Virus record (IMG/VR): IMGVR_UViG_3300032030_002018
Strand: one strand, 5' to 3'
Source of the DNA: a virus
Lineage: Duplodnaviria; Caudoviricetes
DNA: 64,000 nucleotides
Position numbers and translations under genes: made by a program. Every line of letters begins with the position of its first letter. Position 1 is the first letter of the stretch. The notes below the pieces were generated by a model. That model saw nothing but the letters and a program-made list of their open reading frames with translations, was not told the DNA's origin and made no database searches. Positions 322 to 62,013 of this stretch are shown here, in pieces.

Positions 322-987
322 GAAATTATTATCAATATATCTACTTAAATCATTGCAATTCAATTCTATAAGAACATCTGTAAATGCAATATTATTCCAT
401 TTGTCAGATAAAAGTATATTGTTTCTATTGTCAATATACCATATTTCCTTGAAATAGCAGCTTAAGACACCAATATCAGGTATCATTTGACTATCTCCAC
501 TTATGAACAATATCCTGTTATTATTCAATGTTTTATTAATAAGTCGTGAACTTTTATGAGGATATTTATAAAGTCTATGATAACCAGTTATGTTACTATA
601 ATTATCATTGCTTGATGTTATATCATTAAACGACAAATCTTTAAGTTCTTCTTTATCATTAAAACAAGAAATATTGTACTTATATTCTGTTTTTGGGATT
701 AATACAGGTATTTCAAATCCATCTATTATCCTGGTAGATTTAATGAAATCATTCTCATTATATCCAAAATTCAACAAACTATCAAATAAAGGCAACGAGT
801 ACTTCATATGGTACTCATTTCTGAAATGATTATGGTTCAATTTATACCCATCATACATCATACCTTTTTCAGGTAATGGTAATTTGTTAATCCCTTCAAT
901 CCCATATTCCTTATATACATTATAATTTAGAGGGTATTGAACATATACAGCCTTATTTAAAAGTTCATCTTTTGTCATAATTCCCAA
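316..987 (-). CDS. Hypothetical protein, weak resemblance to SGNH/AlgJ-like domain
   Basis: 223-aa ORF; ILFISGDSQM...FKEIWYIDNR resembles the GDS block of SGNH-type proteins. Confidence 0.5.
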   Translation of the reverse strand: MGIMTKDELLNKAVYVQYPLNYNVYKEYGIEGINKLPLPEKGMMYDGYKLNHNHFRNEYHMKYSLPLFDSLLNFGYNENDFIKSTRIIDGFEIPVLIPKTEYKYNISCFNDKEELKDLSFNDITSSNDNYSNITGYHRLYKYPHKSSRLINKTLNNNRILFISGDSQMIPDIGVLSCYFKEIWYIDNRNNILLSDKWNNIAFTDVLIELNCNDLSRYIDNNFK

Positions 988-1274
988 CCGTTATAACCTG
1001 TCTGTTTCTTTCCTTTATACGCAGCGTCGTAATCCTTTTTAGCAATATCGTACTTTGAATGTGCATCGTTATACTCAGCCTCATCTTCTTTGCTCCAAGT
1101 ACTGTAGTGCCTTCCACCTATGTTCTTATCTGCGTCATCCCTTCTTTTCCTTGCCTTTATAAATTTGTCCATAGGTGTGTTTGCATTTATTGTTTCACCT
1201 TCATACAATGAGCGCAATGCGTTCTCAACCATACGAATTATATGTCCTTCAGTTAATCTTATTCTTCTTTTCAT
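975..1274 (-). CDS. Tag-family small protein (MKRRIRLTEG...)
   Basis: N-terminal MKRRIRLTEGHIIRMVENALRSLYE plus unique cargo. Confidence 0.75.
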   Translation of the reverse strand: MKRRIRLTEGHIIRMVENALRSLYEGETINANTPMDKFIKARKRRDDADKNIGGRHYSTWSKEDEAEYNDAHSKYDIAKKDYDAAYKGKKQTGYNGWEL

Positions 1275-1280
1275 AATATT

Positions 1281-2765
1281 CTAAGCATATTTATTATTTA
1301 AATCGCCAATTATTTTGAAATGCAGCATATCGTGATGTATTATGCTTTGCATACCGTAGTTTATCTTAACATCAACATAATATTTCTGTGGTAACAACAT
1401 ATTTGTGTCAAGAACTGTGAATGTCTCATTCATCGTCTTGTTCATCCTGTCAAAAGGTATTACATCAAGTTCCCTTGTGCCATCTCTGACATACAGCCTC
1501 AATTCTATTGAATCAACAGAAGCAGCCATTGTTTTTGTGTAGTTAACCCTTGTTATAACACCAAGTTTCCTTATATCACCCCTCTTTATTTCCTCGTCAC
1601 TCTTTATTCCGAAAACAGAAGGTGTGAAATCAGGTTCATCCTCAATTGAATTTCCTATGTTGAAATATACAGAAGGTCTCTTCACGGTGAAATCAAGTTC
1701 AACGTCGTCAAGTTTAACCCCACCATATGATATGTTTCCCCAAGTATCAAACAACATAGTATCTGGTTCAAACTCTCCGTGAGGTAGTGTTATGTCTATA
1801 TAATACACACCTCTTGACTGATGTTTAACATCGTACTCTCTCTTAAAACCATAATCATTCCTTACTATACAAGTAGGAACATTGTCCAAATCAGTCAGTT
1901 TATCACCAATTGTACTATATAAGTATAATTTATTATTTTTATCCAATACAAAATTAGACCTGTCATCACTTATATAATCATCATAATATGTTTCTACAAA
2001 CGGTGCGAAGAATGTATTTGTTTTATCAGTAAGAAAACCACAATAATTCTCTATATATGACTCTTTATCGGTTTTATCATACTTAACCCTCTCAAATTGA
2101 GGGGAATATGCTATTCCAATACCATAATTTTCAAGTTCCCCTGTAATAAACTTATTAACGACATTTGTTATATCTAAATTAATATTCTCATTTCCAATAT
2201 CAAAATGCTGTCTTCCAATTATTACAACGCTTCCTTCTTCTGACGAGAAATTATCATATTCCCTTGACAAAGTGTCATTTGAATATATTCCTGGTTCATC
2301 CCAATCATAGCCATTACGCGCCTTATACCAGTTACTTCCGTCTGTTGATACAAGTCTTGAAGCATAATGTTTGCTCTTTGTATCATAGAAATCACGGTTA
2401 AAGGCTGTTCTGGAATAATCAAATCCCTTACCTCTATCCCAAAACTTTGGTATAAGGAAAAATATTATGTCGAATGACGTTGCTCTTCTTTTACGATTTG
2501 AGCCTATGCTACTGAATTCATTACAGTGAAGCTCTGTGAAATCTATTGAACCGGCATTTGTTATCCTCAATGTGTGATGAAGTTTTGACATATCAGGGAA
2601 TATATTGCTATCAACCATTTCCTTTAATTTTGAATGGTCGAAATAGCATATAATCCTAGACACGTTAGCACCGTACACCAACTCAGCTACTGGGTTGATG
2701 CCGGTGTTTAAACTTGAATCCTCAATCAAGGTATTGAACTTATTTATGTATGTTCTATAAATCAT
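1281..2765 (-). CDS. Putative virion structural protein
   Basis: 494-aa beta-rich ORF at the end of the tail-fibre operon; no catalytic motif recognised. Confidence 0.55.
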   Translation of the reverse strand: MIYRTYINKFNTLIEDSSLNTGINPVAELVYGANVSRIICYFDHSKLKEMVDSNIFPDMSKLHHTLRITNAGSIDFTELHCNEFSSIGSNRKRRATSFDIIFFLIPKFWDRGKGFDYSRTAFNRDFYDTKSKHYASRLVSTDGSNWYKARNGYDWDEPGIYSNDTLSREYDNFSSEEGSVVIIGRQHFDIGNENINLDITNVVNKFITGELENYGIGIAYSPQFERVKYDKTDKESYIENYCGFLTDKTNTFFAPFVETYYDDYISDDRSNFVLDKNNKLYLYSTIGDKLTDLDNVPTCIVRNDYGFKREYDVKHQSRGVYYIDITLPHGEFEPDTMLFDTWGNISYGGVKLDDVELDFTVKRPSVYFNIGNSIEDEPDFTPSVFGIKSDEEIKRGDIRKLGVITRVNYTKTMAASVDSIELRLYVRDGTRELDVIPFDRMNKTMNETFTVLDTNMLLPQKYYVDVKINYGMQSIIHHDMLHFKIIGDLNNKYA

Positions 2766-3094
2766 TTGTTCTCAAAACTTGCTTCTAATTCACGGTATTC
2801 ATTTCTCAATGCTCTTCTCTCTCCTTGCCAGTCACCATATTGTGTCATATCCTCGCCATCAATGTATTTTGATGTGAGATAATCCATTTGCTTTAATTCA
2901 TCCTCTATTTCTGACATCCTCTGTCTGATTAAGTCTTCTTCAGTTTCAACATAAGCCTCAGGTTCTGATTCCTTAATCCAACCATTCTCAATAAGCATTT
3001 CATCTGAAGGATTGATGACCTGTGTGTTTCCAACGATTATATAACCATTATACAACACCTTTTCATTGTTAATTATCTTATAGAAATTTTTCAT
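2762..3094 (-). CDS. Putative tail-fibre assembly chaperone
   Basis: 110 aa, directly after fibre genes; ELKQMDYLTSK...W...RRALR pattern typical of fibre chaperones. Confidence 0.55.
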   Translation of the reverse strand: MKNFYKIINNEKVLYNGYIIVGNTQVINPSDEMLIENGWIKESEPEAYVETEEDLIRQRMSEIEDELKQMDYLTSKYIDGEDMTQYGDWQGERRALRNEYRELEASFENK

Positions 3095-3112
3095 TTGAAA
3101 AAATATTTTTTA

Positions 3113-11203: not shown

Positions 11204-11215
11204 CATTATTATTTT

Positions 11216-16360: not shown

Positions 16361-16591
16361 TCAATACATTTGACCAAATTGTTCTGGGTCAGCATAATAT
16401 TCTTCCTTTCCCCAATCCGGGTCAATTAAACTGTCTCTCATTGCCTCATCCTCTTCATCGTAATAATCAGAGAATTGTGACATCAAATCGTCGTATTCGT
16501 CGTCATTAAGACCATCGCCGTAAATAGCATCGTCTATTGCATTATCAACTTCCTCTTTGATAATTCTGTTTATTCTAAAATTATTCATCAT
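16361..16591 (-). CDS. Small acidic protein with loose tag (INRIIKEE)
   Basis: 76-aa ORF, translationally coupled to upstream gene. Confidence 0.6.
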   Translation of the reverse strand: MMNNFRINRIIKEEVDNAIDDAIYGDGLNDDEYDDLMSQFSDYYDEEDEAMRDSLIDPDWGKEEYYADPEQFGQMY

Positions 16592-19500
16592 ACTCTTTCA
16601 AAATCTGGCAATTTTATATAACGATATATTTTCCCATTAGCGTCCTTATAATCAACCCTGTCACCGTACAGATTGACTTCTTGACAACCTTTTGGTAAAA
16701 GAACATCTCCATACTTTGTAATTACATTGTATCCTTGTTGGTCTTTCATAACAGCTAGACCATAGTCATTAAATTTACTTTCCAAATCAAACCATACAGG
16801 ATATAGGAGTCTTCCTTTTTCTGTTATTAAATTATATAATCCGTCTTTTCTACGTATAATTTCAGGTTCACTAAAATACTCTGAATAGCCATAGTTTAAG
16901 AAAAGAAACCAATCTTTTGATGCCAGTAGACCTTCCGTATTAATCATATTAGACGAAAATGCGCCTGAATCTGAGTGTACAATAGCCCACCCATAGCAAT
17001 TAAACGCGGTATGCGCTGTAAGCCATTTATTCAAAAGTAATTTTCCATTACGAACCAATAAATACTCACTAGCATTCTTATTATTTTTAACTTCATATTC
17101 TCCGTCTCCGAAGATATAACGTTCCGTGAATGGAACAATATAATCTCCATTTCGATTCATAATGCTAAATCCACGGTTTTGAACGTTTACGACTGCTAAT
17201 CCATAATTATCTATATTCAAAATACTTCTAATCCAGTCATTATTAATTTCATTGAAATTTCTGTCTAAAACCTTCATTAGTCCGTTTTTATACCTTACGA
17301 AGCACCAACCATTTTCATATATAACCTTATGAACACCATAATTGTCTTCAATCATATAATTCCCATTTGTGTCTATGATATTAGACACACCGTTAATTGT
17401 AACCTTGGCGTATCCTTGATAAAATGGATGGGCAATATCAAATGGTTCGCTATTTAATATTCTACCATTTTCGTCAACATAATACCATTTTTTGTCCATT
17501 GCTTGAAAATTGCAGAATCCATCAGAAAACTTGCCAACTTTTATACAAAAATGCTTCAACAAAATATCTCCGTTACTATTCACTATATTTTTCAAATTTT
17601 GATTTACCCGTATTAAACAACAACCATTACCTATTTCTTGTACGTAGTTAATTTTTGAATTCATAGCCATATTGAAATCGTTGTCCAACCACAATATATC
17701 GCCTTCGAAATACTTCCCATATTCATCGTCATCACTATCATAATCATCATTGTATCCACTATAATAATTATAGGTGTATTTGAAAATATACATTTTAGAA
17801 CCGTCTTCGAATGAATACATTTCGTCCATATTGTCGTTAACAATTTTCATTCTTTCTTTAACGTCAGAAGCATTGTATATGTTATCTACCAAATCATATA
17901 TGTTGAGAATATCTGATTTGTTAAATACACTGTCAAAACTCTCACCCATAATCTTACTAATATCAGATTCTTTCAAGGCATAATCAACAGAAGCATTACT
18001 TGGATAATCGACCTGATGATTCCATCTAACGTTGCAAGTTGTCATAATACCTTTTTCATTGACGAAAAACCATACAACACTTAATCCGTAATCATCATAA
18101 GGATTATTGTCATCTATGTAATCCTCTCCATTTAGTTTATCCCAGTCATCTCTTATTAAAACATAAGATTTATTCTTTCCATTTTTATTTATATAATCGT
18201 TATACCAAGTATCCTCATATTGAGTATAACATAACGCTCCGCTTCCATTAAGTCCTGTCTTATCACCAATCTTCCATATGTACGGATTGTGGTAACTATC
18301 GCCTAAACTTATCAGTTGATAACGACTACTGTCTATATCTATATTAGTTAATTGCCCTGACGTGTCACTACAACGTTCTTTTGCAATATTACCAATAATA
18401 CTATATAATTCATTGAAAGATTTACCACTTAAATCATAATTTCCATCTATGAAATTGATGCTGAGTTTATCTTTACCATCACCAATTCCTTGAACATTAT
18501 CATATATTACACCCAACATTGACTTCAATAAACGGAGTCGCGTACTGTTTTCGTAAGACTTACCATCATCCAATAACATAGCCAAATTCAATTCTCCGTA
18601 AGCAATACGAGCTATGGCTGGCTCCAACCTTATTACAGATGAATCATCGATTTTGTTTGATAGCGTTAAGAAAAAATGTTCGTATATATACCTCTCGTAA
18701 AAATCCAACCAAGTAAGGTCTCCTTGTGTTCTGTGTAGTAATCTGCGAGCATCTCCTTGAACATACTCGCCCTCCAAATCCTCATCAGGGAATAAATTCT
18801 TAATCACAATCCTTGTATCCCTCTTTGCCGCGTGAGACTTGCTACTTTCCGTCAAAAAAAAACGTCCACTAAGTTTGTTGTTAAGTTCTAATATCCTATT
18901 TATGTCAGAATTGTATTTCGATTTTGATTCTGAAACATCACTGTATATGTTACCATCAGTGTCTATCTTATACCTTACTCCGTCTAGAATGCCAGTAGCA
19001 TAGTCATCTCTAAACCAATAAAGAATGTCAAACCATCTATCACACAGTATATTACCGTTCTTATTTAAAAAGTTATACTTACCGTCTTGTTTAACAATTG
19101 AAAAATCGTATTCTTCGTCATAAAAAGGGCTTGCATAATCATACCACTGATTAGACAAAAGAGTATTATTATCCGTAACAAAATTATACTTATCGTGCAG
19201 TTTTACTCTTGTCAACCCATCTAAAGCGTCATTAGCACTATCGAATATATGTTCCAATCCATACCCTTGCTGCAACATCATTTCAGCATCATTGAATGTA
19301 ACATACCCTCTTGAATGAAGTTCATCTTCACTATAAGGCTTGAATACACTGCTAAACGGCATTCCAACAGTTTGTGCCAACATAGTTTTCGTGAAAGCGT
19401 GGTCAGTACCTCCAACATATTCACCAGTGTTTCCGTGATTCCATCTACAATTACTCGTTGCTATACTACCATCTGGGGCAATGAAAACAAATATCATACT

Positions 19501-20211: not shown

Positions 20212-20367
20212 TTTTTCGTTAAGATGTATTTACCAAATAAATATCGTTAAAAACAAAAAAAGTGTCTAGAAAAAAAATTGGATACTTTTAATATAATATA
20301 AAGGAACTACCTTCTTCTATGTAATGGTATTGAATCTGCTTGTTTAATATATTGTCAACATCTTTTT

Positions 20368-24021: not shown

Positions 24022-24038
24022 TATTAGATGATAGTTTT

Positions 24039-34005: not shown

Positions 34006-34450
34006 ATAAACTAGATATCAAAATAAATATGAAAAGAAGAATTAGACTAACAGAATCTGACCTGCACAGAATCATAAATCGGTCAGTGAAAAGAACGCTT
34101 AACGAGATTAGAGATACCGCTGAGACTTTTGGAGAATTTGCAGATACACCTTATCGAACACTTCACACTGGTTTAAAGAGTAAAAAAGAACAGATGGATT
34201 CTGATTGGGAAGACCTTGATGAATACTATCCATTCGGACACGGTAGATATCCTGCTGATTATGATGCTTCTGAATTGGCTCGTCTAAATTATGAAGATTG
34301 GAATCCTAGCCAACTTGATAACCAACATATACACGACTTTTATTTGGATAGATAATAATTTATAAACTAGATAACAAAATAAATATGAAAAGAAGAATTA
34401 GACTAACAGAATCTGACTTGCACAGAATCGTAAATCGGTCAGTGAAAAGA
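34006..34450 (+). repeat. 89-bp direct repeat (translation-initiation region plus tag coding sequence)
   Basis: 34006-34094 vs 34362-34450, 3 mismatches, ending at the end of the tag. Confidence 0.92.
34029..34355 (+). CDS. Tag-family protein
   Basis: MKRRIRLTESDLHRIINRSVKRTLNE plus unique acidic cargo. Confidence 0.85.
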   Translation: MKRRIRLTESDLHRIINRSVKRTLNEIRDTAETFGEFADTPYRTLHTGLKSKKEQMDSDWEDLDEYYPFGHGRYPADYDASELARLNYEDWNPSQLDNQHIHDFYLDR

Positions 34451-34648
34451 GTGTTAAAAGACAACATATTTGAATCATCAATGAATGATACTTACTCATT
34501 TAGACAGTTTAGAAACTCTATGTGGAATACCATTGATGATGCGTTAAAAAGAACATTTAGAGAATTTGTTCAATATGTAGGAGACGGATGGGAGGTAACT
34601 AACCCAAATAATGAAGAAGAGTTTATTCATATAACTTTCGGAGATTAA
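34385..34648 (+). CDS. Tag-family protein
   Basis: MKRRIRLTESDLHRIVNRSVKRVLK...IFE plus unique cargo. Confidence 0.85.
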   Translation: MKRRIRLTESDLHRIVNRSVKRVLKDNIFESSMNDTYSFRQFRNSMWNTIDDALKRTFREFVQYVGDGWEVTNPNNEEEFIHITFGD

Positions 34649-44628: not shown

Positions 44629-44679
44629 GTACATTATTGATATTTATTATCAAAATAATTTAATATAATAGAACATAAT

Positions 44680-45103
44680 ATGAAAAAAAAAACTCATTAA
44701 ACTTACAGAATCCGACTTGAATAGAATCGTGAACAGGTCGGTGAAAAGAATACTTAGAGAAGATTTGGGGTCAGAATGGGAAAGTGGTTTTCCTCAATTT
44801 TGGGAATTATCAATACCAAACAAAAATATGAATTTAAGATACAAATTAACGCCACAAGATATGGAACTTATAAGCCAACATAGATTTGGTTTATGTAATT
44901 TATGGGAAATCATATGGGAAAACGTTCCAATTAATAAAAGAACAGGAAAGCCTTCAAAATCATTGAATTGGGATGTATATTACAAATATAAAGATAATCC
45001 AGCAAAAATATTCGAATGGTTGGCAAGACAAGGATATGATATATGGACAGAATGCGAAGAAATGGATTGGGAAGGCGTTTACGAAGATGATTATTTCAAA
45101 TAA
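44680..45103 (+). pseudogene. Tag-family gene frameshifted in an A10 tract
   Basis: ATG-A10-CTCATTAA stops at once; with A9 it reads MKKKLIKLTESDLNRIVNRSVKRILRE into ORF 44717..45103. Confidence 0.75.
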
Positions 45104-45123: not shown

Positions 45124-45723
45124 ATGAATAAGACAATTAATCGTATATTTGATACTTTATCAAAAGCAGATATATCACCCACTTCAAATTATAGCGTACC
45201 AGAATATTGGATGCGTCGTGCAATGAAAGGTGATGAAAAATGTAAAAGGAATCTCTTTAATTGGATTTCAAATATGTTTGGAGTTGATGAACACACATTA
45301 AATTCAATTTTCAATGAGAAATATGGTATTAACGAGAATAGAAAAAAGAAACTCATTAAACTTACAGAATCCGACTTGCAAAGAATCGTGAACAGGTCTG
45401 TTAAGCAAGCACTGAAAGAAGCAAAAGTTGAAGACTGGGATGATGACGACTTCATTACTTGGGATGACTATGCTTATTATTGCAATCATAGTGCTGATTG
45501 GGTAGATAAAAATAGCGAAAAAAGTGACAGATTAGGAATTCCAGATGACGAAAGATGTTACTTTTGTCAAAAACCAGTAAAAAAATATAAAACACTTTAT
45601 GCAAAACCTGGGGAATATCCATATTATGGAAAGCCTGGTCAAGGGCGTACAGATACATTTAAAGTTGGACCAACTTGTGCAAAGGCTGTTGAAAAAGCAC
45701 ATAATGATAAATACGGAAAATAA
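45124..45723 (+). CDS. Two-cargo protein with internal tag
   Basis: INENRKKKLIKLTESDLQRIVNRSVKQALKE in mid-protein; C-terminal CxxC...GPTC zinc-ribbon-like cargo. Confidence 0.8.
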   Translation: MNKTINRIFDTLSKADISPTSNYSVPEYWMRRAMKGDEKCKRNLFNWISNMFGVDEHTLNSIFNEKYGINENRKKKLIKLTESDLQRIVNRSVKQALKEAKVEDWDDDDFITWDDYAYYCNHSADWVDKNSEKSDRLGIPDDERCYFCQKPVKKYKTLYAKPGEYPYYGKPGQGRTDTFKVGPTCAKAVEKAHNDKYGK

Positions 45724-46127
45724 TGAAAAGAAGAATTAGATTAACAGAATCAGACCTTCACAGAATTATTAACAGGTCAGTTAAAAGAGTACTGAAAGAA
45801 TCACAAAGACAGCAGGAGATTTTTACAATATCGGCACTTGACATTGAAAACGAAGAAGATGTAAGTGATATGCAATATTGTGGAAAATCTTATTATGATA
45901 TTGATGAAGCCATTGAAGCAGCAACAGAATTCGCTAAAACACTTTCTGATTATGATAGTGTGATTATTGTTACAGTCTATGGTGGAGAGTATGAAACACA
46001 AAGCGGAGATGTATATGGAGAACCGTTTGATATATACACAATATCTAATAGCGACCAAGAAACAACAGAAATCGCAAGAGAAGAAGCAGGATATTATAGG
46101 TTGGATGTTGATGACTATGCTGTATAA
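45723..46127 (+). CDS. Tag-family protein
   Basis: MKRRIRLTESDLHRIINRSVKRVLKE plus acidic cargo. Confidence 0.85.
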   Translation: MKRRIRLTESDLHRIINRSVKRVLKESQRQQEIFTISALDIENEEDVSDMQYCGKSYYDIDEAIEAATEFAKTLSDYDSVIIVTVYGGEYETQSGDVYGEPFDIYTISNSDQETTEIAREEAGYYRLDVDDYAV

Positions 46128-46157: not shown

Positions 46158-46544
46158 ATGAAAAGAAGAATTAGATTAACAGAATCTGACCTGCATAGAA
46201 TTATTAACAGGTCTGTGAAAAGAATATTGAATGAAGTCAAACTTGATAATCCTCATAATAACTTAGGTTATGTTGATGATATGGTTTCAAATCACAAAGA
46301 CATATATTCAAAGGGTGCAAGAATTGAAGAATGTTTGGCAGAACTAATGGTTGATAACGGATTGACAATTGAAGATGTTGAACAATATGATAACCTTATG
46401 TCCATTATAGACCGCAATAGATTAAATGACGCAATAGAAGAATATAAATCATTTCTTCAAAAACAAGAGGCTTACGATAAAAAACAAGAATATGAAGCCT
46501 GGGCAGAAGACCAAATGTCAGATATGGGTTTAGATTATGAGTAA
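46158..46544 (+). CDS. Tag-family protein
   Basis: MKRRIRLTESDLHRIINRSVKRILNE plus acidic cargo. Confidence 0.85.
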   Translation: MKRRIRLTESDLHRIINRSVKRILNEVKLDNPHNNLGYVDDMVSNHKDIYSKGARIEECLAELMVDNGLTIEDVEQYDNLMSIIDRNRLNDAIEEYKSFLQKQEAYDKKQEYEAWAEDQMSDMGLDYE

Positions 46545-46548: not shown

Positions 46549-46580
46549 AAAAAGGAAGACTTTTAGTTGTCTTCCTTTTT
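46549..46580. terminator. Bidirectional terminator
   Basis: aaaaggaagac-N9-gtcttcctttt. Confidence 0.75.
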
Positions 46581-48980: not shown

Positions 48981-50987
48981 TTAACGCAACTCACTGATTG
49001 ACCAATGAACAAGTCCGTCCACCCTCACGTGGCCGTAAAAGCGATTGTTGACTACCTTCTTCGCATATCTCGTCATTATACCTTTGACGGGAGCAAAGTT
49101 AAATGGATTATACATAGTAGGTGTTAACTGCATTGGCACGTATGGTGCGTAAATATAACCTGTGTCGAGGAGTGACTTACCCTTGTGACCGATGATAATT
49201 GACCAGTGTGGTGAATATGGGTCACGATAAACTTGGTAGCGTCCTGCGAGTGCGCCAATCTTTTCAATACCCATATTGTACTGGTCGCTTTCTGCGCTTG
49301 CGTCAGAAACGTGGAAGTACTCAAGGTTATCGAAGAGTGCGGATATTTCAGAAGATACTACAATGAAGTTTGCGCCACCACGGAGAGTTGCCTTATGTAT
49401 CTGTGCTGAAATCTGGTTAATCTTTGTGAAGAGTTCCTGGTTCCAGTCCTTCTGAGTGTAGTTAGTAGAGAATGCTGCCATTCTTCTCCAACCGTTGACA
49501 TCCCATCTTGCCTGCCAAGGAGCGGCTTTACGGAGGTCACGAAGAATCTCACGGTCAATTTCTGCTGCGATTTGTTCAGAAAGAATTGCTGTAAGTTCTG
49601 CCTCTGCGTCAATGTTATGGAATGCGCTAACGTCCTGTGCAAGTTCAGGAGACCAAGTTGCACGAAGTTTTCTTTCAGTAACTGATACTGTTACAGAATC
49701 GAGTTTGAAAGAAACCTCACCGATTTCGGTTTCAAGTTCAAGTGAATCGTACTGTGCCCAAGCAATCTTGAAGATTTCTGCTGTTGCATCTACATCAGTT
49801 GGGAATTCTCCAAGTGAATCTGCTGATACACCAACATAACCGTCAATTGTTCCACCTTGCTGCTTAACTGGTTTTGCGAGGTCAAGTTCAAGATAGATAT
49901 TTCCTTCTGCGTCACAAGCGCTGGAGTATTCTACAATACCCTTACCGTACTTTTGAGTAGCAACACGGAAAGGAACAGATTCAAACTGCTTGAAAGAAGA
50001 TGTGGTAACGCCAGATGCGCCTTCAACTTCACCAGCTGCAAGTTCCTTCATTGTGATAACTTTCAAAGAAGCCAAGAAAGCTTCTGTATCCATTTCGTTT
50101 CCGTCAGGACCTGTAAGTTTAGAAGCGTTGAAAGAAGAGAAGCCACCTACTTTAAGGATGACGTTACGAACAGTTCCGTCAAATCCGTTAAGTTGCCAGG
50201 TTACACCACTTGGAGGGGTATCCATACCTCTTGGAGTAAGGAATACAGGTGTTGCTTCACCAACCTTGATAGTAACTTTACCCTTAGAATTGTCATAAAG
50301 GAAGTCGTTATAGAAGAGGTCGTAAAGTGACTTTTGGAAGTACTTTGTTACCTCAGGACCAGCCTGACGATAGTTAGATGCAGGGATTGTTGGGTCAGCC
50401 TTAACTGCCTGTTGAAGTGCGTAACCGCTTTCGTATTCGTCTTCACCTGCTTCGATAGCTGGATTGATTTTTACAAACTTCTTTTCAAGTTCGTTAATTG
50501 TCTCGTCTGGGAGATAGTAGCGTGGTTCAACTTGTCCACCCTTATTGTTATTAACTCTATCGTAACCCATAAGACCTGTATGACGTCCTGTAGTTCCGTC
50601 TACGATATCACCAGGAGTGTACTCTTGGTCTGTTGGAAGTTCCCACTCTCTTTCTGATGTAACAGGAAGGATGAAGAACAACTTACCCACTGGCAAGTTC
50701 ATTGCCTGAACAGAAACGATATCGTTAGCAAGCAATTTGCTGAACACACGGCGAATGATAGGGAACACAACTGTTTCAAAAGAACCGCTGTTATCGGCTG
50801 CTGTTGCTTCTGAAATAAGGTGTTTTGCCTCGTTTTCGTAGAGTGTAGCGATATTTTCCTTAATAGTACCTTCAAGACCTTCGGTAAATCCGAGAGAGTC
50901 CCAACGTTTTTGGATGCTTTCACGAATCCTTCTCTGTTCGTTCAGTTCGATATTACCAACCTGTCCGCTTGATAAAAATTCTCTCAT
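48981..50987 (-). CDS. Major capsid protein (T4 gp23-like)
   Basis: IVSVQAMNLPVG.LF, RKLRATWSPELAQD..AFHNIDAEAELTAILSEQIAAEIDREI, YAPYVP, KGIMTRY; LISE/A maturation-like site. Confidence 0.96.
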   Translation of the reverse strand: MREFLSSGQVGNIELNEQRRIRESIQKRWDSLGFTEGLEGTIKENIATLYENEAKHLISEATAADNSGSFETVVFPIIRRVFSKLLANDIVSVQAMNLPVGKLFFILPVTSEREWELPTDQEYTPGDIVDGTTGRHTGLMGYDRVNNNKGGQVEPRYYLPDETINELEKKFVKINPAIEAGEDEYESGYALQQAVKADPTIPASNYRQAGPEVTKYFQKSLYDLFYNDFLYDNSKGKVTIKVGEATPVFLTPRGMDTPPSGVTWQLNGFDGTVRNVILKVGGFSSFNASKLTGPDGNEMDTEAFLASLKVITMKELAAGEVEGASGVTTSSFKQFESVPFRVATQKYGKGIVEYSSACDAEGNIYLELDLAKPVKQQGGTIDGYVGVSADSLGEFPTDVDATAEIFKIAWAQYDSLELETEIGEVSFKLDSVTVSVTERKLRATWSPELAQDVSAFHNIDAEAELTAILSEQIAAEIDREILRDLRKAAPWQARWDVNGWRRMAAFSTNYTQKDWNQELFTKINQISAQIHKATLRGGANFIVVSSEISALFDNLEYFHVSDASAESDQYNMGIEKIGALAGRYQVYRDPYSPHWSIIIGHKGKSLLDTGYIYAPYVPMQLTPTMYNPFNFAPVKGIMTRYAKKVVNNRFYGHVRVDGLVHWSISELR

Positions 50988-51029: not shown

Positions 51030-52580
51030 TTATTTGCATAATCTATGCATCAAGTCCAATGAACTGAGCAGGTCATCGGATTTATAGATACGAGTCTCAT
51101 TAACTTTTTTATTTTCAGTCAAGAATTCAGGATTGCTGATGTTGATTTTGTTTCTGTTTTGCAACTCCCTTGAAATTGACTCGTATAGATTTCTTGATTC
51201 CTTGACTGTTTTCGCCTCATTTCCAAATCGTGCGATAATCTCCTTCTTTTCGTCAGAGCTGGTTGAGTTTTCAGAGATGAGTTTTATTATTTGTCCAAGA
51301 TTGACATTTGTCACAGCTGCTTCCTTAAGAATGCCTTTGAATTGGTTAAGAGCGCGTTTAAGTTCATTATTCTCACGGAAAATGTTATTTGCCCTTCTTA
51401 CAACTGATTCAGTAGTAACATCGTCTTCTCTATTGGAATATCTTGGGGTTACAGTTCCCTTTATTCTCCTTCCACCCTTGCTTGCGCTTCTTGCGCTTCT
51501 ACCGTTTGAGTTTGGAACGTGTGATTTGGAAGTTGAGTTTTGTTGAACGAAGCCCCCAACGTTTGTTGCCTCTTCAAGTTCCATATCGTCTTCTTCCTCA
51601 ACAGTTTTTCCTTTTCCGGCTGTGAAAGGTTTGTCTGCTGATTTCCTTGGATATCCTGACCAAGGTTTAGCGTCACCCTTTGGAACACCCTTATCCCAAT
51701 CTCTTACATTTTTGCCAGGTTCTGACATACCAGGATTACTCATAACATCATTTTTCTGATAGTTATCAGTATATCCAACGTTGGAATCGTATTCATTCAG
51801 GGCGATTTCAAAAATCATCGATTCATTCATTGTTTTATCATTATTATCTTCGTCTTCTTCGGAATCCTCATCAGTATCATCCTCCAAGACATTATCTTCA
51901 TCATCGTCGATTTCGACCTCGATATCATCGTCATCAGTGTCGTCGTCTTCTGTATCATAAGAAACCTCAATATCAACATCGTCATCAGTATCGTCAATAT
52001 CAACATCTGTATCGTCAAAATCAGTGTCAATATCTGTATCAACGTCTGTATCCGTGTCCATATCAAGAATTATCTCACTATCAGCAGAATCAGCGTCATC
52101 ATCAAGAACGATGATATATTCTGCCCCGGTTTCATTGTCTTTAACGTTGACCTTATTGTCAGTTTTCTTAATTACAACTTGGTCGTCGTTATTGAGCAAT
52201 TTATAAACCTTCACGACTTCATCGTCTTCCGCGTTAGAGAAATCATACTCGTCATCTGATACCTTATACTTATCAAAATCAGACCATTCCTCAGCATCAT
52301 CAGAATCTATATCTGAATCCATATCGCCTGTTTCATTTTCGTCTGAATCATCGGTATCAATTTCAGTATCTTCCACCTCTTCAACATCATAAGCGTCGTC
52401 ATCCTCGTCTTTGTCATCTTCTTCAGATTCGTTCAAGATTTTTGTATAGGTTTCACGAACTGCGTCATTAAGCAAATCCTTAACAGCATTTGTCGTGTTT
52501 TCCTTAAGCAATCCTTCGATATTGCTGAACTCATCAAGAGATTCCTTGACATATTTGCTTCTGATATTTTCTTTTTTCAT
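51030..52580 (-). CDS. Prohead scaffold/core protein (gp22 position)
   Basis: Highly acidic with coiled-coil C-terminus and many LxE sites; directly upstream of the capsid gene. Confidence 0.75.
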   Translation of the reverse strand: MKKENIRSKYVKESLDEFSNIEGLLKENTTNAVKDLLNDAVRETYTKILNESEEDDKDEDDDAYDVEEVEDTEIDTDDSDENETGDMDSDIDSDDAEEWSDFDKYKVSDDEYDFSNAEDDEVVKVYKLLNNDDQVVIKKTDNKVNVKDNETGAEYIIVLDDDADSADSEIILDMDTDTDVDTDIDTDFDDTDVDIDDTDDDVDIEVSYDTEDDDTDDDDIEVEIDDDEDNVLEDDTDEDSEEDEDNNDKTMNESMIFEIALNEYDSNVGYTDNYQKNDVMSNPGMSEPGKNVRDWDKGVPKGDAKPWSGYPRKSADKPFTAGKGKTVEEEDDMELEEATNVGGFVQQNSTSKSHVPNSNGRSARSASKGGRRIKGTVTPRYSNREDDVTTESVVRRANNIFRENNELKRALNQFKGILKEAAVTNVNLGQIIKLISENSTSSDEKKEIIARFGNEAKTVKESRNLYESISRELQNRNKINISNPEFLTENKKVNETRIYKSDDLLSSLDLMHRLCK

Positions 52581-52755: not shown

Positions 52756-53910
52756 ATGAATAAAGGTGTAATAAAAGAGATAAAAAAGGGAGAAACAGGT
52801 AAGGGATTGTTAATTGAATCTGATGGATACATATCAATGAACCTGTCAGAAAACAACAGAAGGATATGCGAGGATTTCAGACAGGATGGATGGAATGTAC
52901 CAAAGCCATTCATCGTTGATGCTGTATTTCAGAAATTTGATACAAAAAATGCAAACGGAAGAATATATCCTGAGAAAATATTAAAGGAACAAGTTGAAAT
53001 ATACCAACAGAAAATCAAAGAAAGAAGAGCATACGGTGAATGCTATAAACCAGATGCACTGATATTAACTGAAACCGGATGGAAAACACTGGAAGAAGTT
53101 AAAGTTGGCGATAATATACTCACGTTAAATGTTGAAACAAATCAAATCGAAATTCAACCTATATATGAAAAGGTTGAATATGATTATGAGGGAGATATGA
53201 TAAGGATATACAATAGGAACATTGATGATATTGTAACGCCAGAACACCAATACATCGTATATGATAATGATACAAAAAAATATCTTAATAGATATACAGC
53301 CACAGAAATTATGTACGGAGATTTCGATGATAAACTATATATTCCAAATATCGGTATAAATGACGGAATTCTTCTAAAAGACGTTAAATCAGAAAAAATC
53401 CCATATAATGGCAAAGTTATGTGTGTAAAAGTTGAAAATCACAACTTCTATGTTATGTGTAACAATAAAACACACTGGACATCAAATTACTGTAACCATC
53501 CGTCGGACACCACAATTGACCTTGGACGAATATCACATAACATCATTGAGTTACATTGGGTTGGAAAAACACTTGTTGGAAAAATGGAACTCAACATATC
53601 TGAAGGTTTCAGGCGTAACGGAATATGTTCGTCATATGGAGATACTGTTGCATTGCTATTGCTTAATGGATATAAGATTGGAGTGTCTTCAAGAGGAGTT
53701 GGAAATGTTGAAATGAAAATGGGAAATTATATCGTTGGAGACGATTTTGAAATAATCTGTTGGGATACCGTTTCTGACCCAAGCACTCCGGGGGCTTTTA
53801 TATCATCAAACGGTCCTGATGAATTACGGCAATATGTAGAAAATTCAGAAAAGGATAAATCAAAACTTATTTCAGAAAAAATAAACAAAATAAAAAACAT
53901 ACTTAAATAA
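52756..53910 (+). CDS. Prohead maturation protease (T4 gp21-like) with mini-intein
   Basis: KNANGRIYP, AYGE...NHP, SHNI, IGVSSRGVG, WDTVSDPSTPGA. Confidence 0.93.
   Translation: MNKGVIKEIKKGETGKGLLIESDGYISMNLSENNRRICEDFRQDGWNVPKPFIVDAVFQKFDTKNANGRIYPEKILKEQVEIYQQKIKERRAYGECYKPDALILTETGWKTLEEVKVGDNILTLNVETNQIEIQPIYEKVEYDYEGDMIRIYNRNIDDIVTPEHQYIVYDNDTKKYLNRYTATEIMYGDFDDKLYIPNIGINDGILLKDVKSEKIPYNGKVMCVKVENHNFYVMCNNKTHWTSNYCNHPSDTTIDLGRISHNIIELHWVGKTLVGKMELNISEGFRRNGICSSYGDTVALLLLNGYKIGVSSRGVGNVEMKMGNYIVGDDFEIICWDTVSDPSTPGAFISSNGPDELRQYVENSEKDKSKLISEKINKIKNILK
53041..53487 (+). mobile_element. Mini-intein (149 aa, no endonuclease)
   Basis: C1 CYKPDALILTETGW; block B VTPEH; block F KVMCVKVENHNFYV; ends WTSN. 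Confidence 0.85.
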
Positions 53911-56921: not shown

Positions 56922-56924
56922 ATT

Positions 56925-58693: not shown

Positions 58694-58705
58694 GTATTTT
58701 ATACA

Positions 58706-59488
58706 TTACCAATACTCTCTTTCATCTGATGTATCCAAATAATCACTACACCTTCGTTCTAATTCATCAGAAATTTCCCGCCTAATGAATTTCCTTAATC
58801 TGATTTTATCAGAATCATTAGGTACATATTCATTTAAAATCTTACCTTCTATTCTATTCAACAATTGTGATATTTCTCCTTTTATGCTCTTTTTCTCATA
58901 ATCATTGCCATAAACTGATATATCAAGTATATGTAGTAGGTCTTGATTTAATTCATCGTCGAAACATTGTTTAATAATACTTCGCCAAGAAGAATTCCCC
59001 TTTTTATATCCGTTCCTATCTACATTGTCTCTATTCAATCCATTCTTGTTGAACCCCTGACGATTAAAACCATCTCTATCAATACCATATCGGTTAAAAC
59101 CTTCTCTATTATATCCTTCACGGTCATAACCTCTATTGTTGAAACCTTCTTTATCAAAGCCACTTCTTCCAAAACCATTCTTATCATAACCTTCTCTATC
59201 ATATCCTTCACGGTCATAACCATTAACATCCCTTTTTGGAATTCTCTTTAACCCTATTTCTGGTTCCCGATTATTTGTTTTAACTAAAGTATCTGTTGTT
59301 ATCCAATCTTTAGGCATTTTACCATTGTATTCACCAAACGTATCATCCAAATATTTCCTGGTACCGTATTTATCATCAAGTTTTGGCTTTACCTCTATTT
59401 CATTTAATATTCTTTTCACAGACTCTGATACTATTCTTCTCAATCCTGATTCTGTTAATCTAACTCTATTTTTTCTCATAATTTTCAT
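58706..59488 (-). CDS. Tag-family protein with G(Y/F)(D/N)xx pentapeptide repeats
   Basis: RVRLTESGLRRIVSESVKRILNE; GYDREGYDREGYDKNGF... about 12 repeats. Confidence 0.85.
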   Translation of the reverse strand: MKIMRKNRVRLTESGLRRIVSESVKRILNEIEVKPKLDDKYGTRKYLDDTFGEYNGKMPKDWITTDTLVKTNNREPEIGLKRIPKRDVNGYDREGYDREGYDKNGFGRSGFDKEGFNNRGYDREGYNREGFNRYGIDRDGFNRQGFNKNGLNRDNVDRNGYKKGNSSWRSIIKQCFDDELNQDLLHILDISVYGNDYEKKSIKGEISQLLNRIEGKILNEYVPNDSDKIRLRKFIRREISDELERRCSDYLDTSDEREYW

Positions 59489-59559
59489 CAGTTTAATAAT
59501 TATTATTAAACTAAACGGAAAAATACTGGATAATTGTTATATTTATATTAAAAAATATA

Positions 59560-60207
59560 ATGGATACAAAGGAAATCAACAAGATTATAAACAAATTATA
59601 TCGCATTGTTCAAAAAAGCGGATATAGCGGAAAACTGTATCGTGACGACGACTGGTCAGGATTATTCTCAATAAGAGAGATTGTCCAACCAGTACTTCCA
59701 CCAGGATTCAGACTGATTATGAACCACGTGTACGGATATACACAAGACGGCAATTCAAAGGAATATCAATTCACAGTCGAACACGAAGAAACCGGAGAGC
59801 AAATAATTGACGGATATATCACAGCTCACGCAGCCGGGAATATGAACGATAAATGGAGCGCATACGATATAACAGCACAATGGGCAAAACATAATAATAC
59901 ATATACAGAATCAAATAAGATGAAAAAGAAACTTGTAAGATTAACAGAATCTGACCTACATAGAATTGTTAATGAGTCAGTAAGAAAAGTATTGAGAGAA
60001 TGGAACAATGATTACGAAGGAAACGACTTAACATACGATTCAATAAAAATGCAAGCAGAACATATCATACCACAAATGGAACAGAATGGAGAACCAATCT
60101 CTTGGAGGAATGTTGCAAAACAAATGGGATTCAGACTTGAAACACTCAACGGAGATGATATGGAACTGCTCAAAGACACAATAGAAGAAGTTATGATGTA
60201 TATGTAA
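59560..60207 (+). CDS. Two-cargo protein with internal tag
   Basis: YTESNKMKKKLVRLTESDLHRIVNESVRKVLRE in mid-protein, retaining its own ATG. Confidence 0.8.
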   Translation: MDTKEINKIINKLYRIVQKSGYSGKLYRDDDWSGLFSIREIVQPVLPPGFRLIMNHVYGYTQDGNSKEYQFTVEHEETGEQIIDGYITAHAAGNMNDKWSAYDITAQWAKHNNTYTESNKMKKKLVRLTESDLHRIVNESVRKVLREWNNDYEGNDLTYDSIKMQAEHIIPQMEQNGEPISWRNVAKQMGFRLETLNGDDMELLKDTIEEVMMYM

Positions 60208-60215
60208 AAATAATA

Positions 60216-60247
60216 AATCCAGCCTGAATTTCAGACTGGATTTTTTT
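60216..60247. terminator. Bidirectional terminator
   Basis: aaatccagcctga-att-tcagactggattt. Confidence 0.7.
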
Positions 60248-60549: not shown

Positions 60550-60935
60550 CTCTTAATCCTCCACACAATTTTAAATATTATATACGCAATGCCAATTACA
60601 CCACATATAATCAAATATAACTGCCATTGCTTAAGCTTATTGACCTCAACAACCTTCGTTATCGTAACAGTCTTTATAATAGGTATTGTATCAATCTGAC
60701 GCAACGTGTCCCTGGATACAATACGCTTCACAACAACCTTCTCCTTGGTGTCATATACAGTGTCACCCTTACGTTCAATATAACGAACAACAGAGTCATT
60801 GACAATAACACTGTCAACCTTTGTAACATACTCAGTCCTTACCCTCTCAACCTCAACAACACGCTCAACAGGCTTGCAAGAGAATAATAATAACGAGAAT
60901 AATACAAATACCAAATAATAATTAACCCTTCTCAT
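60546..60935 (-). CDS. Putative unimolecular spanin
   Basis: Lipoprotein signal (LLLFSC), beta-rich DTV/DSV region and C-terminal TM helix. Confidence 0.7.
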   Translation of the reverse strand: MRRVNYYLVFVLFSLLLFSCKPVERVVEVERVRTEYVTKVDSVIVNDSVVRYIERKGDTVYDTKEKVVVKRIVSRDTLRQIDTIPIIKTVTITKVVEVNKLKQWQLYLIICGVIGIAYIIFKIVWRIKR

Positions 60936-61282
60936 TTCTTATCCAAAACTTTTTTACTAACCCAATTCATATACTCATCCCTGAAATCCATAACAGCGGC
61001 AAACTTACAATATACATTGTCCAACGTAATACCATACTCATCCATCAAACGACTGACCAACTCCAATAAAGCACAACGCTGCTCAACTGTCCTGGTGTCA
61101 CAAACAGTCTTGCCATCAATACCAATACCACCAACATAACATACGCTGATTCTATTACCAATAACATTACTGCAAGAACGAACAACACCATCACGATGTA
61201 TTATGTAATCAAATAAACACCTCTCATTATCCATAATATCATCACCATACGAACAATCAAGGACAATCTCTCTTACATTCAT
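60932..61282 (-). CDS. Degenerate T7-lysozyme-type amidase homolog
   Basis: YII.RDG, ISVCYVGG...DTRTVEQ..AL..LV..L retained; Zn-ligand motifs HC, GH and CP missing. Confidence 0.65.
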   Translation of the reverse strand: MNVREIVLDCSYGDDIMDNERCLFDYIIHRDGVVRSCSNVIGNRISVCYVGGIGIDGKTVCDTRTVEQRCALLELVSRLMDEYGITLDNVYCKFAAVMDFRDEYMNWVSKKVLDKK

Positions 61283-61407
61283 ATTTTTTTTTCACTTTTA
61301 TAAATAAATATACCGAAAAATAAGAATGTAACAAAAATATTTCAACCAAATATCAGTATTTTTAACCATTTTCTAATATTTATTATTATAAACTAAATAT
61401 TACATAT

Positions 61408-62013
61408 ATGAAAAGAAAAATTAGACTAACAGAATCTGACCTTCACAGAATCGTGAATGAGTCAGTGAAGAGCATATTAACCGAACTTGATTGGAGAACA
61501 GTAGTGAGTGCCGCTAATAAGGCACGTGCCAAATTTAAAGATATGGTAGTTGACCGTGCAATGGGACAACTTGACCCTTATGGCAAATATAGTAAATTAA
61601 CTGGACAATACGGACCACATAGTGATTATGTAATTAAAAGAAGTTGGAAAAGTCCTAAAGGTTCAACTCGTTGGGTTAACAAAGATGACGAAATACGAAG
61701 AAAGATGAGGCAAGCAGATAATCTTTCTAAATTTGCCGACGAAGCAATTAAAGATAGATTCGGTAAAGAATCATATTACAACAATTTAAATGGAGTCGGA
61801 GAAGAATTCCCAGTATATAGAAAAACGCGTAATAACAGAGAAATGGATGAACCAGAAGTTTTGGACTACACCCCAAACAATGATTATGTAAATGGAGAAT
61901 ACGGTGATTATGAATTAGACAGTATGCCACAAAAATACCAAGATAATGCCAAGGAAATTAATGATTTCCAAAACGGGAAAACAAAATATCTTAAAGGAAG
62001 AGGATGGAAATAA
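61408..62013 (+). CDS. Tag-family protein
   Basis: MKRKIRLTESDLHRIVNESVKSILTE plus unique cargo. Confidence 0.85.
   Translation: MKRKIRLTESDLHRIVNESVKSILTELDWRTVVSAANKARAKFKDMVVDRAMGQLDPYGKYSKLTGQYGPHSDYVIKRSWKSPKGSTRWVNKDDEIRRKMRQADNLSKFADEAIKDRFGKESYYNNLNGVGEEFPVYRKTRNNREMDEPEVLDYTPNNDYVNGEYGDYELDSMPQKYQDNAKEINDFQNGKTKYLKGRGWK

What the first reader, a model, noticed from the sequence alone, without database searches (positions are those of the whole stretch)
975..62013. Portable 26-aa tag on many unrelated cargo proteins: candidate modular capsid-targeting and injection system
Seen: ten genes (975, 34029, 34385, 44680, 45124, 45723, 46158, 58706, 59560, 61408) carry near-identical K/R-rich-(I/V)(R/K)LTESDLHRI(V/I)NxSVKRxLxE followed by unrelated, mostly acidic 60-230-aa cargo. 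Looser copies occur at the N-terminus (16361, 16588, 20368, 31392, 38406, 38959, 39945, 56925) or C-terminus (2-229, 27573, 41161, 56316, portal tail). DNA differences between copies are mainly synonymous, so the peptide is what is selected. Known: T4 internal proteins IPI-III use a short N-terminal capsid-targeting sequence, are cut by gp21 after (I/L)-x-E, and are injected; IPI* inhibits a restriction enzyme. Inference: the tag is a basic amphipathic helix that docks on the very acidic scaffolds (51030, 28150), is removed at its LTE/LxE sites by the gp21-like protease in this window, and delivers an interchangeable set of host-takeover or anti-defence proteins.
Basis: partly seen in the sequence, partly recalled or inferred. 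Interest (0 to 1): 0.92.

Follow-up and report, generated by a model that had tools for sequence, protein, structure and literature searches.

The report
Shared 26-residue tag on phage proteins
A giant T4-like phage of Bacteroidota puts the same 26-residue basic helix, bounded by two protease-type Leu-x-Glu sites, on about 30 otherwise unrelated small proteins; it is most likely a head-loading propeptide like the T4 capsid targeting sequence, on a much larger scale, but this is not shown.

Summary
Ten genes in the window, and 30 in the 334,687-bp phage genome, carry the tag MKRRIRLTESDLHRIVN(R/E)SVKRxLxE. It is followed by sequences with no detectable similarity to each other. Selection acts on the peptide (pS 0.62, pN 0.22).

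A profile of the tag finds 4,611 protein clusters in public metagenomes. It matches no Pfam or PHROG family, no cultured phage and no paper. Other first-stage notes saw the tag elsewhere in this genome, but not on other DNA.

The tag is not strictly a leader. It also occurs internally, at C-termini and 2-4 times per protein.

The two best-conserved residues are E9 and E26. Each closes an L-x-E motif, and conservation ends at E26.

The phage has a T4-type head module: gp23-like capsid protein with a conserved L(I/L)xE|A site, a scaffold, and an S77 protease. In relatives, tagged genes lie between protease and portal, where T4 has gp67 and gp68.

No tagged gene has the host-type Bacteroidota promoter. 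Twelve share a second promoter class with the protease and head and tail genes.

Best reading (about 0.5): a prohead-targeting propeptide cut by the protease. Injection and anti-defence roles are unsupported. The "looser copies" are not significant.

The parts
975..1274 (-). Tagged gene (99 aa). Diverged tag at 1197-1274 (MKRRIRLTEGHIIRMVENALRSLYEG).
   Evidence: i-E 6e-16 with the window-built profile; 2e-6 with the broad profile
34029..34355 (+). Tagged gene (108 aa). Tag at 34029-34106. ATATTTAA motif 52 nt upstream.
34385..34648 (+). Tagged gene (87 aa). Tag at 34385-34462, ending LKD instead of LxE.
44680..45103 (+). Tagged gene. Its ATG (44680) is followed by an A10 run that puts it out of frame with the tag (44684-44761). 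ATATTTAT lies at 44640-44647. It is the first of a four-gene tagged array.
45124..45723 (+). Tagged gene (199 aa) with an INTERNAL tag at 45343-45420 (residue 74 on). The tag DNA is closest to the 44684 copy.
45723..46127 (+). Tagged gene (134 aa). Tag at 45723-45800. The cargo folds as a confident small alpha/beta domain. All 12 homologues found keep a tag.
46158..46544 (+). Tagged gene (128 aa). Tag at 46158-46235.
58706..59488 (-). Tagged gene (260 aa). Tag at 59399-59476 (RKNRVRLTESGLRRIV...). About 50 nt of upstream DNA is shared with three copies elsewhere in the genome.
59560..60207 (+). Tagged gene (215 aa) with an INTERNAL tag at 59923-60000, preceded by an in-frame ATG at 59920.
61408..62013 (+). 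Tagged gene (201 aa, basic cargo). Tag at 61408-61485. AF2 puts a helix at residues 9-25, then a break at 26-28.
52756..53910 (+). Prohead protease (Peptidase_S77, T4 gp21 type), interrupted by an intein. The N-terminus has a conserved G(L/I)L(I/V)E motif. ATATTTAT lies 29 nt upstream.
51030..52580 (-). 516-aa hyperacidic protein (pI 4.09) in the position of the T4 gp22 scaffold, conserved in all relatives. Its N-terminal helix ends in a conserved L-x-E and weakly resembles the tag.
48981..50987 (-). Major capsid protein (gp23 type, 668 aa, with a clade-wide insertion). Conserved L(I/L)xE|A near residue 60.
22021..24063 (-). Portal protein.
16588..21927 (-). Two large proteins (1207 and 519 aa) beside the portal. 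They share an N-terminal helix ending ILLTEGD. They are possible further propeptide-bearing head proteins, not tag family members.

Best explanation
The 26-residue module has a basic N-terminal stretch, an L-T-E site, and an amphipathic helix that ends in L-x-E. It is most likely a prohead (capsid-core) targeting propeptide of a clade of uncultivated jumbo T4-like phages of Bacteroidota.

Inferred mechanism:
1. The helix lets any attached domain co-assemble into the scaffolding core while the head is built.
2. The S77 (gp21-type) prohead protease then cuts after the two Glu residues (E9 and E26).
3. This frees each attached domain inside the head and cuts multi-unit proteins into their units.

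New tagged genes arise by cassette-like duplication and recombination. The promoter plus tag forms the 5' homology arm.

Shown: the module, its copy number, selection on the peptide, its position-independent and multi-copy architecture, the T4-type head module, and the promoter class.

Inferred: targeting, cleavage and the fate of the cargo. My odds for the cargo are about one third ejected effectors, one third expendable gp67/gp68-like core proteins, and the rest unknown.
For: 1. Scale and selection. There are 30 copies in the genome with unrelated cargoes. pS is 0.62 against pN 0.22. The profile finds 4,611 cluster representatives at E<=1e-3 among 1.84 billion proteins.

2. Logo of 233 unique tags. 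E9 (97%) and E26 (92%) are among the most conserved positions. Each is preceded by L-x (L7 88%, L24 85%). P1' after E9 is S or G in 89%. Information falls from 3.7 to 0.5 bits right after E26. This matches the L/I-x-E rule of T4 gp21 (PMC9026906).

3. Head module. The phage has a gp23-type capsid protein, a portal, a TerL, an S77 protease and a scaffold in the gp22 position. The capsid protein keeps L(I/L)xE|A across 15 relatives, matching T4 gp23 FLTE|A. The protease N-terminus keeps G(L/I)L(I/V)E, like T4 gp21 LIE-9.

4. Occurrence. All 30 large tag-bearing IMG/VR contigs carry 2-17 tags. Five of the six that are at least 90% complete have S77. The 15 neighbourhoods with a capsid-protein match have capsid proteins 55-84% identical to this one.

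5. Synteny. In 8 of 16 relatives, 1-4 strongly tagged small genes lie within about 2 kb of the protease. In 3 more the match is weak. About 3.4 would be expected from tag density. Where both genes are in the fetched stretch, the tagged genes lie between protease and portal. T4 has the core proteins gp67 and gp68 there. T4 gp67 is likewise a helix with LIE sites followed by a polyacidic tail.

6. Architecture. Tags are N-terminal (138), internal (76) or C-terminal (6) in the top 150 hits, and 66 of these proteins have 2-4 tags spaced about 80-140 aa apart. P0252 is a fusion of two tag-cargo units. This fits processing into units. It also parallels T4 Alt, which has propeptides at both ends, and the redundant cleavage sites of phiKZ propeptides (PMC9026906).

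7. Expression class. None of the 30 tags lies behind the bipartite Bacteroidota-type promoter (TTTG-N17-21-TAnnTTTG, 98 sites genome-wide). Twelve lie 28-52 nt downstream of ATATTTAW. That motif also precedes the protease, the 500-aa acidic protein in the portal/terminase block (28150-29652), the portal-adjacent large proteins and a weak baseplate-hub-like gene at 14391-15995.

8. Structure. AF2 puts the tag in a helix from residue 9 to 25-28. pLDDT dips at the junction to a separately folded cargo domain.
Against: - There is no direct evidence that any tagged protein is in a virion or is cleaved.
- No cultured phage carries the tag, so no virion proteome exists.
- The tag has no sequence similarity to the T4 head proteins tested: gp20, gp21, gp22, gp23, gp24, gp67, gp68, Alt and Inh.
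- It is longer and far more basic than the 10-19-residue T4 propeptides.
- Many cargoes are strongly acidic, unlike the basic DNA-binding internal proteins of T4.
- L-x-E is a short motif. T8-x-x-D11 could simply be a helix N-cap.
- The ATATTTAW promoter class also precedes a helicase gene, so it is not proven to be 'late'.
- In this genome the nearest strong tag is 5.5 kb from the protease.
- One 95%-complete tag-bearing contig shows no S77 match and only fragmentary capsid-protein matches.
- Synteny in related phages is not independent evidence.
Confidence: 0.5

Rival explanations
1. The helix is a docking or oligomerisation module for a hub unrelated to the capsid. The hub could be a phage replication or transcription complex, a host target, or the tagged proteins themselves forming mixed helical bundles. 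The L-x-E motifs would be structural (N-cap, salt bridges), not cleavage sites.
For: The tag works at N-terminal, internal and C-terminal positions and in several copies, as expected of a generic binding helix. It has no similarity to T4 head proteins. The promoter class is shared with a helicase gene. Tagged genes are spread over the whole genome.
Against: This does not explain why the two Glu closing L-x-E are the best-conserved residues of a basic helix, or why conservation ends exactly at E26. It does not explain the conserved position beside the prohead protease in relatives, or the restriction seen so far to phages with a T4-type head module.
Confidence: 0.2
2. The tag is a basic nucleic-acid-binding arm. 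It tethers the attached domains to phage DNA (a histone-like or co-packaging role) or to RNA. Proteolysis plays no part.
For: The tag has pI 9.7-12, with 7-9 Lys/Arg in 26 residues. T4 internal proteins are basic and contact DNA (PMC3012670, PMC9026906).
Against: Most cargoes are strongly acidic (net charge down to -36), which would oppose DNA binding. The invariant acidic residues E9, D11 and E26 are unexpected in a DNA-binding helix. No DNA-binding family matches.
Confidence: 0.12
3. The conservation is a by-product of a DNA-level cassette: promoter, start region and terminator that duplicate and recombine (like the PeSL regulatory cassettes of T4-type phages). The peptide has no function of its own.
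For: Two tandem tagged genes at genome 98.7-100.4 kb share 149 bp at 89% identity (from -70 to codon 26) and 155 bp at 83% downstream of the stop. The coding payload between them is unrelated. Several copies share up to 50 nt of upstream DNA. PeSL cassettes are described in PMC2839356 and PMC4122927.
Against: pS is near saturation (0.62) while pN is 0.22, and Ser switches between codon families. Internal and C-terminal tags have no promoter or start codon: only 12 of 82 non-N-terminal tags begin with Met. The peptide is conserved across 4,611 divergent clusters. Cassette shuffling explains how tags spread, not why they are kept.
Confidence: 0.05

Closest known systems
T4 capsid targeting sequence (CTS) of internal proteins IPI-III (and Alt), removed by gp21
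   Same: A short shared propeptide sits on otherwise unrelated, fast-evolving proteins. It ends in L/I-x-E. The phage has a gp21-type protease, a scaffold core and a gp23-type shell. The number and identity of cargoes vary between relatives (PMC3012670, PMC9026906).
   Different: The tag is 26 residues against 10-19, and highly basic. It has no sequence similarity to the T4 head proteins tested. It has two cleavage-type sites. There are about 30 cargoes per genome against 3-4. It also occurs internally, at C-termini and in tandem units, and many cargoes are acidic. Packaging, cleavage and ejection are unproven here.
T4 prohead core proteins gp67 and gp68
   Same: They are small proteins encoded between portal and protease. 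gp67 is an amphipathic helix with LIE sites followed by a polyacidic tail. Tagged small acidic proteins occupy the same position in relatives.
   Different: No detectable homology. Several cargoes here are folded domains rather than acidic tails. Most tagged genes are dispersed through the genome.
Propeptide-bearing inner-body and ejection proteins of phiKZ, 201phi2-1 and SPN3US
   Same: These are jumbo phages whose distant gp21 homologues cut many head-internal proteins after Glu. Their propeptides contain redundant cleavage sites (PMC9026906, PMC5694885).
   Different: Those propeptides are long, not a single shared short tag. Their motif is S/A/G-x-E, and the head module belongs to another lineage.
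P1 DarB N-terminal packaging signal; encapsulin cargo-loading peptides
   Same: A short terminal peptide is sufficient to load a protein into an HK97-fold shell (PMC9024508; encapsulins from general knowledge).
   Different: They are unrelated in sequence, and P1 has a single known cargo with such a signal. Encapsulin peptides bind the shell directly and are not cleaved.
PeSL mobile regulatory cassettes of T4-type phages
   Same: Conserved promoter- and terminator-bearing ends flank swapped payload genes (PMC2839356, PMC4122927).
   Different: Here the 5' arm runs 26 codons into the coding sequence and is under selection at the peptide level.

Membership tests
T4-type CTS / internal-protein system | A shared short propeptide on otherwise unrelated proteins | tested here: met
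   30 tags with unrelated cargoes. However, the tag is 26 aa and not always N-terminal.
T4-type CTS / internal-protein system | The propeptide ends in an L/I-x-E gp21 cleavage motif | tested here: met
   [LIV]-x-E at positions 24-26 in about 202 of 220 tags. LTE at positions 7-9 in 173 of 220. This is sequence evidence only.
T4-type CTS / internal-protein system | The phage encodes a gp21-type protease, a scaffold core and a gp23-type capsid protein processed at L/I-x-E | tested here: met
   Peptidase_S77 at 3e-15. Major capsid protein matches phrog_138. A scaffold lies in the gp22 position. L(I/L)xE|A is conserved in the capsid protein.
T4-type CTS / internal-protein system | Sequence homology of the tag to T4 propeptides | tested here: inconclusive
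   No hit of the tag profile to T4 gp20, gp21, gp22, gp23, gp24, gp67, gp68, Alt or Inh. IPI-III themselves were not fetched.
T4-type CTS / internal-protein system | Tagged proteins are present in proheads, the tag is removed, and the cargo is ejected into the host | not testable with these tools
   No cultured relative.
T4 gp67/gp68 prohead core proteins | A small gene between portal and protease | tested here: met
   Met in relatives: 8 of 16 strongly, 3 more weakly. Not met in this genome, where the module is split.
T4 gp67/gp68 prohead core proteins | Sequence homology | tested here: not met
   No PHROG hit for ten protease-adjacent tagged proteins. The tag profile does not hit gp67 or gp68.
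Any curated protein family (Pfam, PHROGs) | The tag or cargo matches a model | tested here: not met
   No family over its cut-off for the tagged proteins of the window and genome, or for the 150 best database hits.
PeSL-like regulatory cassette | Conserved promoter-side and terminator-side flanks with a swapped payload | tested here: met
   One tandem pair: 149 bp at 89% and 155 bp at 83% flank unrelated coding sequences. Homology to PeSL itself was not tested.

The most novel reading that the evidence does not exclude
A position-independent, cleavable capsid-loading tag lets this clade of Bacteroidota jumbo phages pack dozens of different proteins. These include multi-unit polyproteins that the prohead protease cuts apart inside the head. 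The phage then delivers them with its DNA as a rapidly exchangeable arsenal of effectors. The promoter-plus-tag cassette acts as the recombination handle for swapping payloads between phages.
Probability: 0.25. Interest if true: 0.85.

Novelty: new variant of a known kind. Interest (0 to 1): 0.62.

Why it matters
If the tag is a head-loading signal, this would be by far the largest known repertoire of capsid-targeted proteins: about 30 per genome and thousands of clusters. It occurs in an abundant, uncultivated group of gut and rumen phages of Bacteroidota.

It would mark hundreds of orphan proteins as candidate virion-internal or injected factors, giving a ready list to screen against Bacteroidota defence systems.

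It would extend the T4 CTS principle to polyprotein-like, multi-tag architectures.

It would also offer a short portable peptide for loading foreign proteins into phage heads aimed at Bacteroidota.

Even if the targeting reading is wrong, the motif is one of the most widespread undescribed short modules in phage proteins and deserves a family definition.

Tried and rejected
- Co-fold of the tag alignment with the 516-aa scaffold alignment (complex prediction): no verdict, score 0.00, controls not run. This is no evidence either way.
- Pfam on window tagged proteins, on the 150 best database hits and on nine further genome copies; PHROGs on ten protease-adjacent tagged proteins. Nothing passed a cut-off.
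- tblastn of a tagged protein and of the tag alone against 50,697 phage records. Only chance hits appeared, at E about 4.
- Full-text search for the motif strings: no paper.
- ESM Atlas look-alikes of the 45723 protein: only unnamed clusters.
- Fold search with the confident AF2 model of the 45723 cargo (pLDDT 83.8). Foldseek against PDB found nothing at E<=1e-3. VIA-align wide gave a best Z of 5.1 to T4 Dmd, then AcrIF9 and a phage SAM lyase at Z 3.8-3.9. All are below the noise level stated by the tool, so no function is claimed.
- AF2 of the 61408 family was low-confidence (pLDDT 62) and was not searched.
- Loose tag copies: profile and hhalign are not significant.
- hhalign of the tag against the scaffold N-terminal helix: P 8.7e-4 but only 23% probability. 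This is a hint, not a finding.
- LTE[SG] outside tags: 10 observed against 3.7 expected, three of them near N-termini. Suggestive only.
- ATATTTAW as a strictly late promoter: rejected, because it also precedes a helicase gene.
- The first homologous-protein run failed because the query was too short.

Full report
**What is there**

The window is positions 169184-233183 of a single 334,687-bp viral contig with 34% G+C. A motif scan and translation confirm the tag at all ten listed genes. The consensus is MKRRIRLTESDLHRIVN(R/E)SVKRxLxE.

A profile built from the ten copies finds 30 copies with E<1e-3 in the whole genome. The sequences after the tag give no BLASTP hit to each other at E<=1e-3. 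Tags have pI 9.7-12. Most cargoes are acidic, with net charge down to -36, though several are basic.

Across 24 tags pS is 0.62 and pN is 0.22, and Ser alternates between TCN and AGT codons. The peptide is therefore under purifying selection.

Three details differ from the finding:
- Two window copies are internal (45343 and 59923).
- The 44680 start is out of frame because of an A10 run.
- The "looser copies" do not reach significance with a profile of 233 unique tags or by hhalign.

**How widespread it is**

The tag profile finds 4,611 representatives at E<=1e-3 and 150 at E<=1e-10 among 1.84 billion cluster representatives. Among the 150 best hits, 66 proteins carry 2-4 tags. Tag positions are N-terminal (138), internal (76) and C-terminal (6). 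Tags within one protein are mostly 80-140 residues apart. Only 12 of 82 non-N-terminal tags begin with Met.

A word-based search among longer proteins gave 926 hits, almost all without any Pfam domain. There is no Pfam or PHROG match for tags or cargoes, no cultured phage with the tag and no paper containing the motif.

In IMG/VR the tag occurs on many contigs of up to 412 kb. Thirty large contigs all have 2-17 tags.

Orthologues of one cargo always keep a tag, with variable linkers. One of them (P0252) is a fusion of two tag-cargo units.

**What kind of phage this is**

The head module is of the T4 type:
- a gp23-type major capsid protein (phrog_138; best cultured relatives about 40% identical);
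- a portal and a large terminase;
- a Peptidase_S77 (gp21-type) prohead protease at 52756-53910, interrupted by an intein;
- a 516-aa hyperacidic protein between protease and capsid gene, in the place of gp22.

Fifteen of the 16 fetched protease neighbourhoods of tag-bearing contigs encode capsid proteins 55-84% identical to this one. S77 is found in 17 of 30 contigs and in 5 of the 6 that are at least 90% complete. The sixth has only fragmentary capsid matches.

The host is very probably a member of Bacteroidota. The genome holds 98 copies of the bipartite TTTG-N17-21-TAnnTTTG promoter typical of that phylum (established knowledge: Bayley et al. 2000). They are concentrated before small genes at 238-260 kb.

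**Evidence bearing on mechanism**

1. *Tag logo.* The best-conserved residues include E9 (97%) and E26 (92%). Each closes an L-x-E motif, the residue after E9 is small, and information content collapses right after E26. T4 gp21 cuts after Glu in L/I-x-E (PMC9026906).

2. *Other candidate cleavage sites.* The capsid proteins of the clade keep L(I/L)xE|A near residue 60 with a variable x, matching FLTE|A of T4 gp23. The protease N-terminus keeps G(L/I)L(I/V)E, like LIE-9 of gp21. The scaffold N-terminal helix ends in a conserved L-x-E before its acidic region.

3. *Synteny.* In relatives where the fetched stretch includes the portal, the order is capsid - scaffold - protease - one to four tagged small genes - portal. 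T4 has the core proteins gp67 and gp68 in that position. Eight of 16 neighbourhoods have a strong tag within about 2 kb of the protease, and three more have a weak one. About 3.4 would be expected from tag density. These phages are related, so this counts as conserved synteny, not as independent trials. T4 gp67 has the same architecture as many tagged proteins: a helix with LIE sites followed by a polyacidic tail.

4. *Promoters.* No tag lies behind the host-type promoter. Twelve lie 28-52 nt behind ATATTTAW. Four more (34385, 45343, 45723, 46158) lie close downstream of such a gene on the same strand and may be co-transcribed. The same motif precedes the protease, the 500-aa acidic protein in the portal/terminase block (28150-29652), the portal-adjacent large proteins and a weak baseplate-hub-like gene. 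It also precedes a helicase gene, so it marks a phage-specific class, not proven late genes.

5. *Structure.* AF2 models place the tag in a helix from residue 9 to 25-28. Confidence dips at the junction to a separately folded cargo domain.

6. *Spread.* Two tandem tagged genes share 149 bp (from -70 to codon 26, 89% identity) and 155 bp downstream of the stop (83% identity), with unrelated payloads in between. This shows cassette-like exchange.

**Interpretation**

These data fit a CTS-like propeptide. The helix would take the attached domain into the scaffolding core, and the S77 protease would remove it at E9 and E26. The two sites provide redundancy, as in phiKZ propeptides. C-terminal and internal copies parallel the two-ended processing of T4 Alt and the fragmentation of core proteins (PMC9026906).

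None of these steps is shown. What happens to the cargo is open. Folded acidic domains could be ejected effectors. Helix-plus-acidic-tail proteins could be expendable core components like gp67.

The main rival is a docking helix for some non-capsid hub. It explains position independence, but not the conserved Glu pattern, the sharp boundary at E26 or the synteny with the protease. A purely DNA-level cassette is excluded as the sole cause.

**Comparison with what is known, and novelty**

The concept of a shared targeting sequence on diverse internal proteins of T-even phages is established (PMC3012670, PMC9026906). An N-terminal packaging signal is also known in P1 (PMC9024508).

This tag differs in several ways. 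Its sequence, length and charge are different. Its copy number is about ten times higher. It is position-independent and occurs in multi-unit proteins. It is coupled to a promoter cassette.

It is undescribed in Pfam, PHROGs and the searchable literature. I class it as a new variant of a known kind, conditional on the targeting reading, with interest 0.62.

Noticed in passing
window 52756-53910 (+): The prohead protease gene carries an intein (Intein_splicing/Hint match at residues about 96-187) between the two halves of the S77 domain. Most relatives have an uninterrupted protein of 231-251 aa. Two others have larger insertions (397 and 607 aa).
   Followed up: partly
window 44683-44692: An A10 homopolymer directly after the ATG of the first gene of the four-gene tagged array shifts the frame. 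A9 would give MKKKLIKLTE, as in the paralogous copy at 45343. It could be an assembly error, a natural frameshift or slippage-dependent expression.
   Followed up: partly
window 46563-48750 (-) and 48981-50987 (-): Two HNH/homing-endonuclease-like genes lie directly downstream of the capsid gene. The capsid protein (668 aa) has an insertion relative to cultured T4-like phages: tblastn matches come in two pieces covering about 49%. The insertion is present in all relatives, so it is a clade-wide domain, not an intron.
   Followed up: partly
genome 238-260 kb (outside the window); also upstream of window 47743-48750 and 51030-52580: There are 98 copies of a bipartite Bacteroidota-type promoter (TTTG-N17-21-TAnnTTTG). 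Many have a long near-identical consensus (..TTTGG..AAATAAATTGNTTACATTTGCAATGTAA..) before small genes. This points to a Bacteroidota host and marks the presumptive early genes.
   Followed up: partly
window 62367-63572 (-): A TnpB / IS605 OrfB-like gene (HTH_OrfB_IS605, OrfB_IS605 and Cas12f1-like TNB domains).
   Followed up: no
window 54009-56144 (-): A 711-aa BspA-type leucine-rich-repeat protein lies next to the protease. A related LRR protein at genome 138127-139347 is preceded by the ATATTTAT motif.
   Followed up: no
genome 98700-100360 (outside the window): A tandem pair of tagged genes has conserved 5' (promoter plus tag) and 3' flanks and unrelated payloads. This suggests cassette-type exchange.
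   Followed up: yes
window 16588-21927 (-): Two large proteins (1207 and 519 aa) beside the portal share a 45-residue N-terminus (..RIIRQVINEQILLTEGDSRINAV..). Both are preceded by ATATTTAT. They are candidate head-internal proteins with a propeptide of their own.
   Followed up: partly
IMG/VR contig behind L018 (G006, 317 kb): This tag-bearing, 95%-complete contig has no S77 match. Its capsid-protein matches are only short fragments in small open frames, as if its head genes were split or very divergent.
   Followed up: partly
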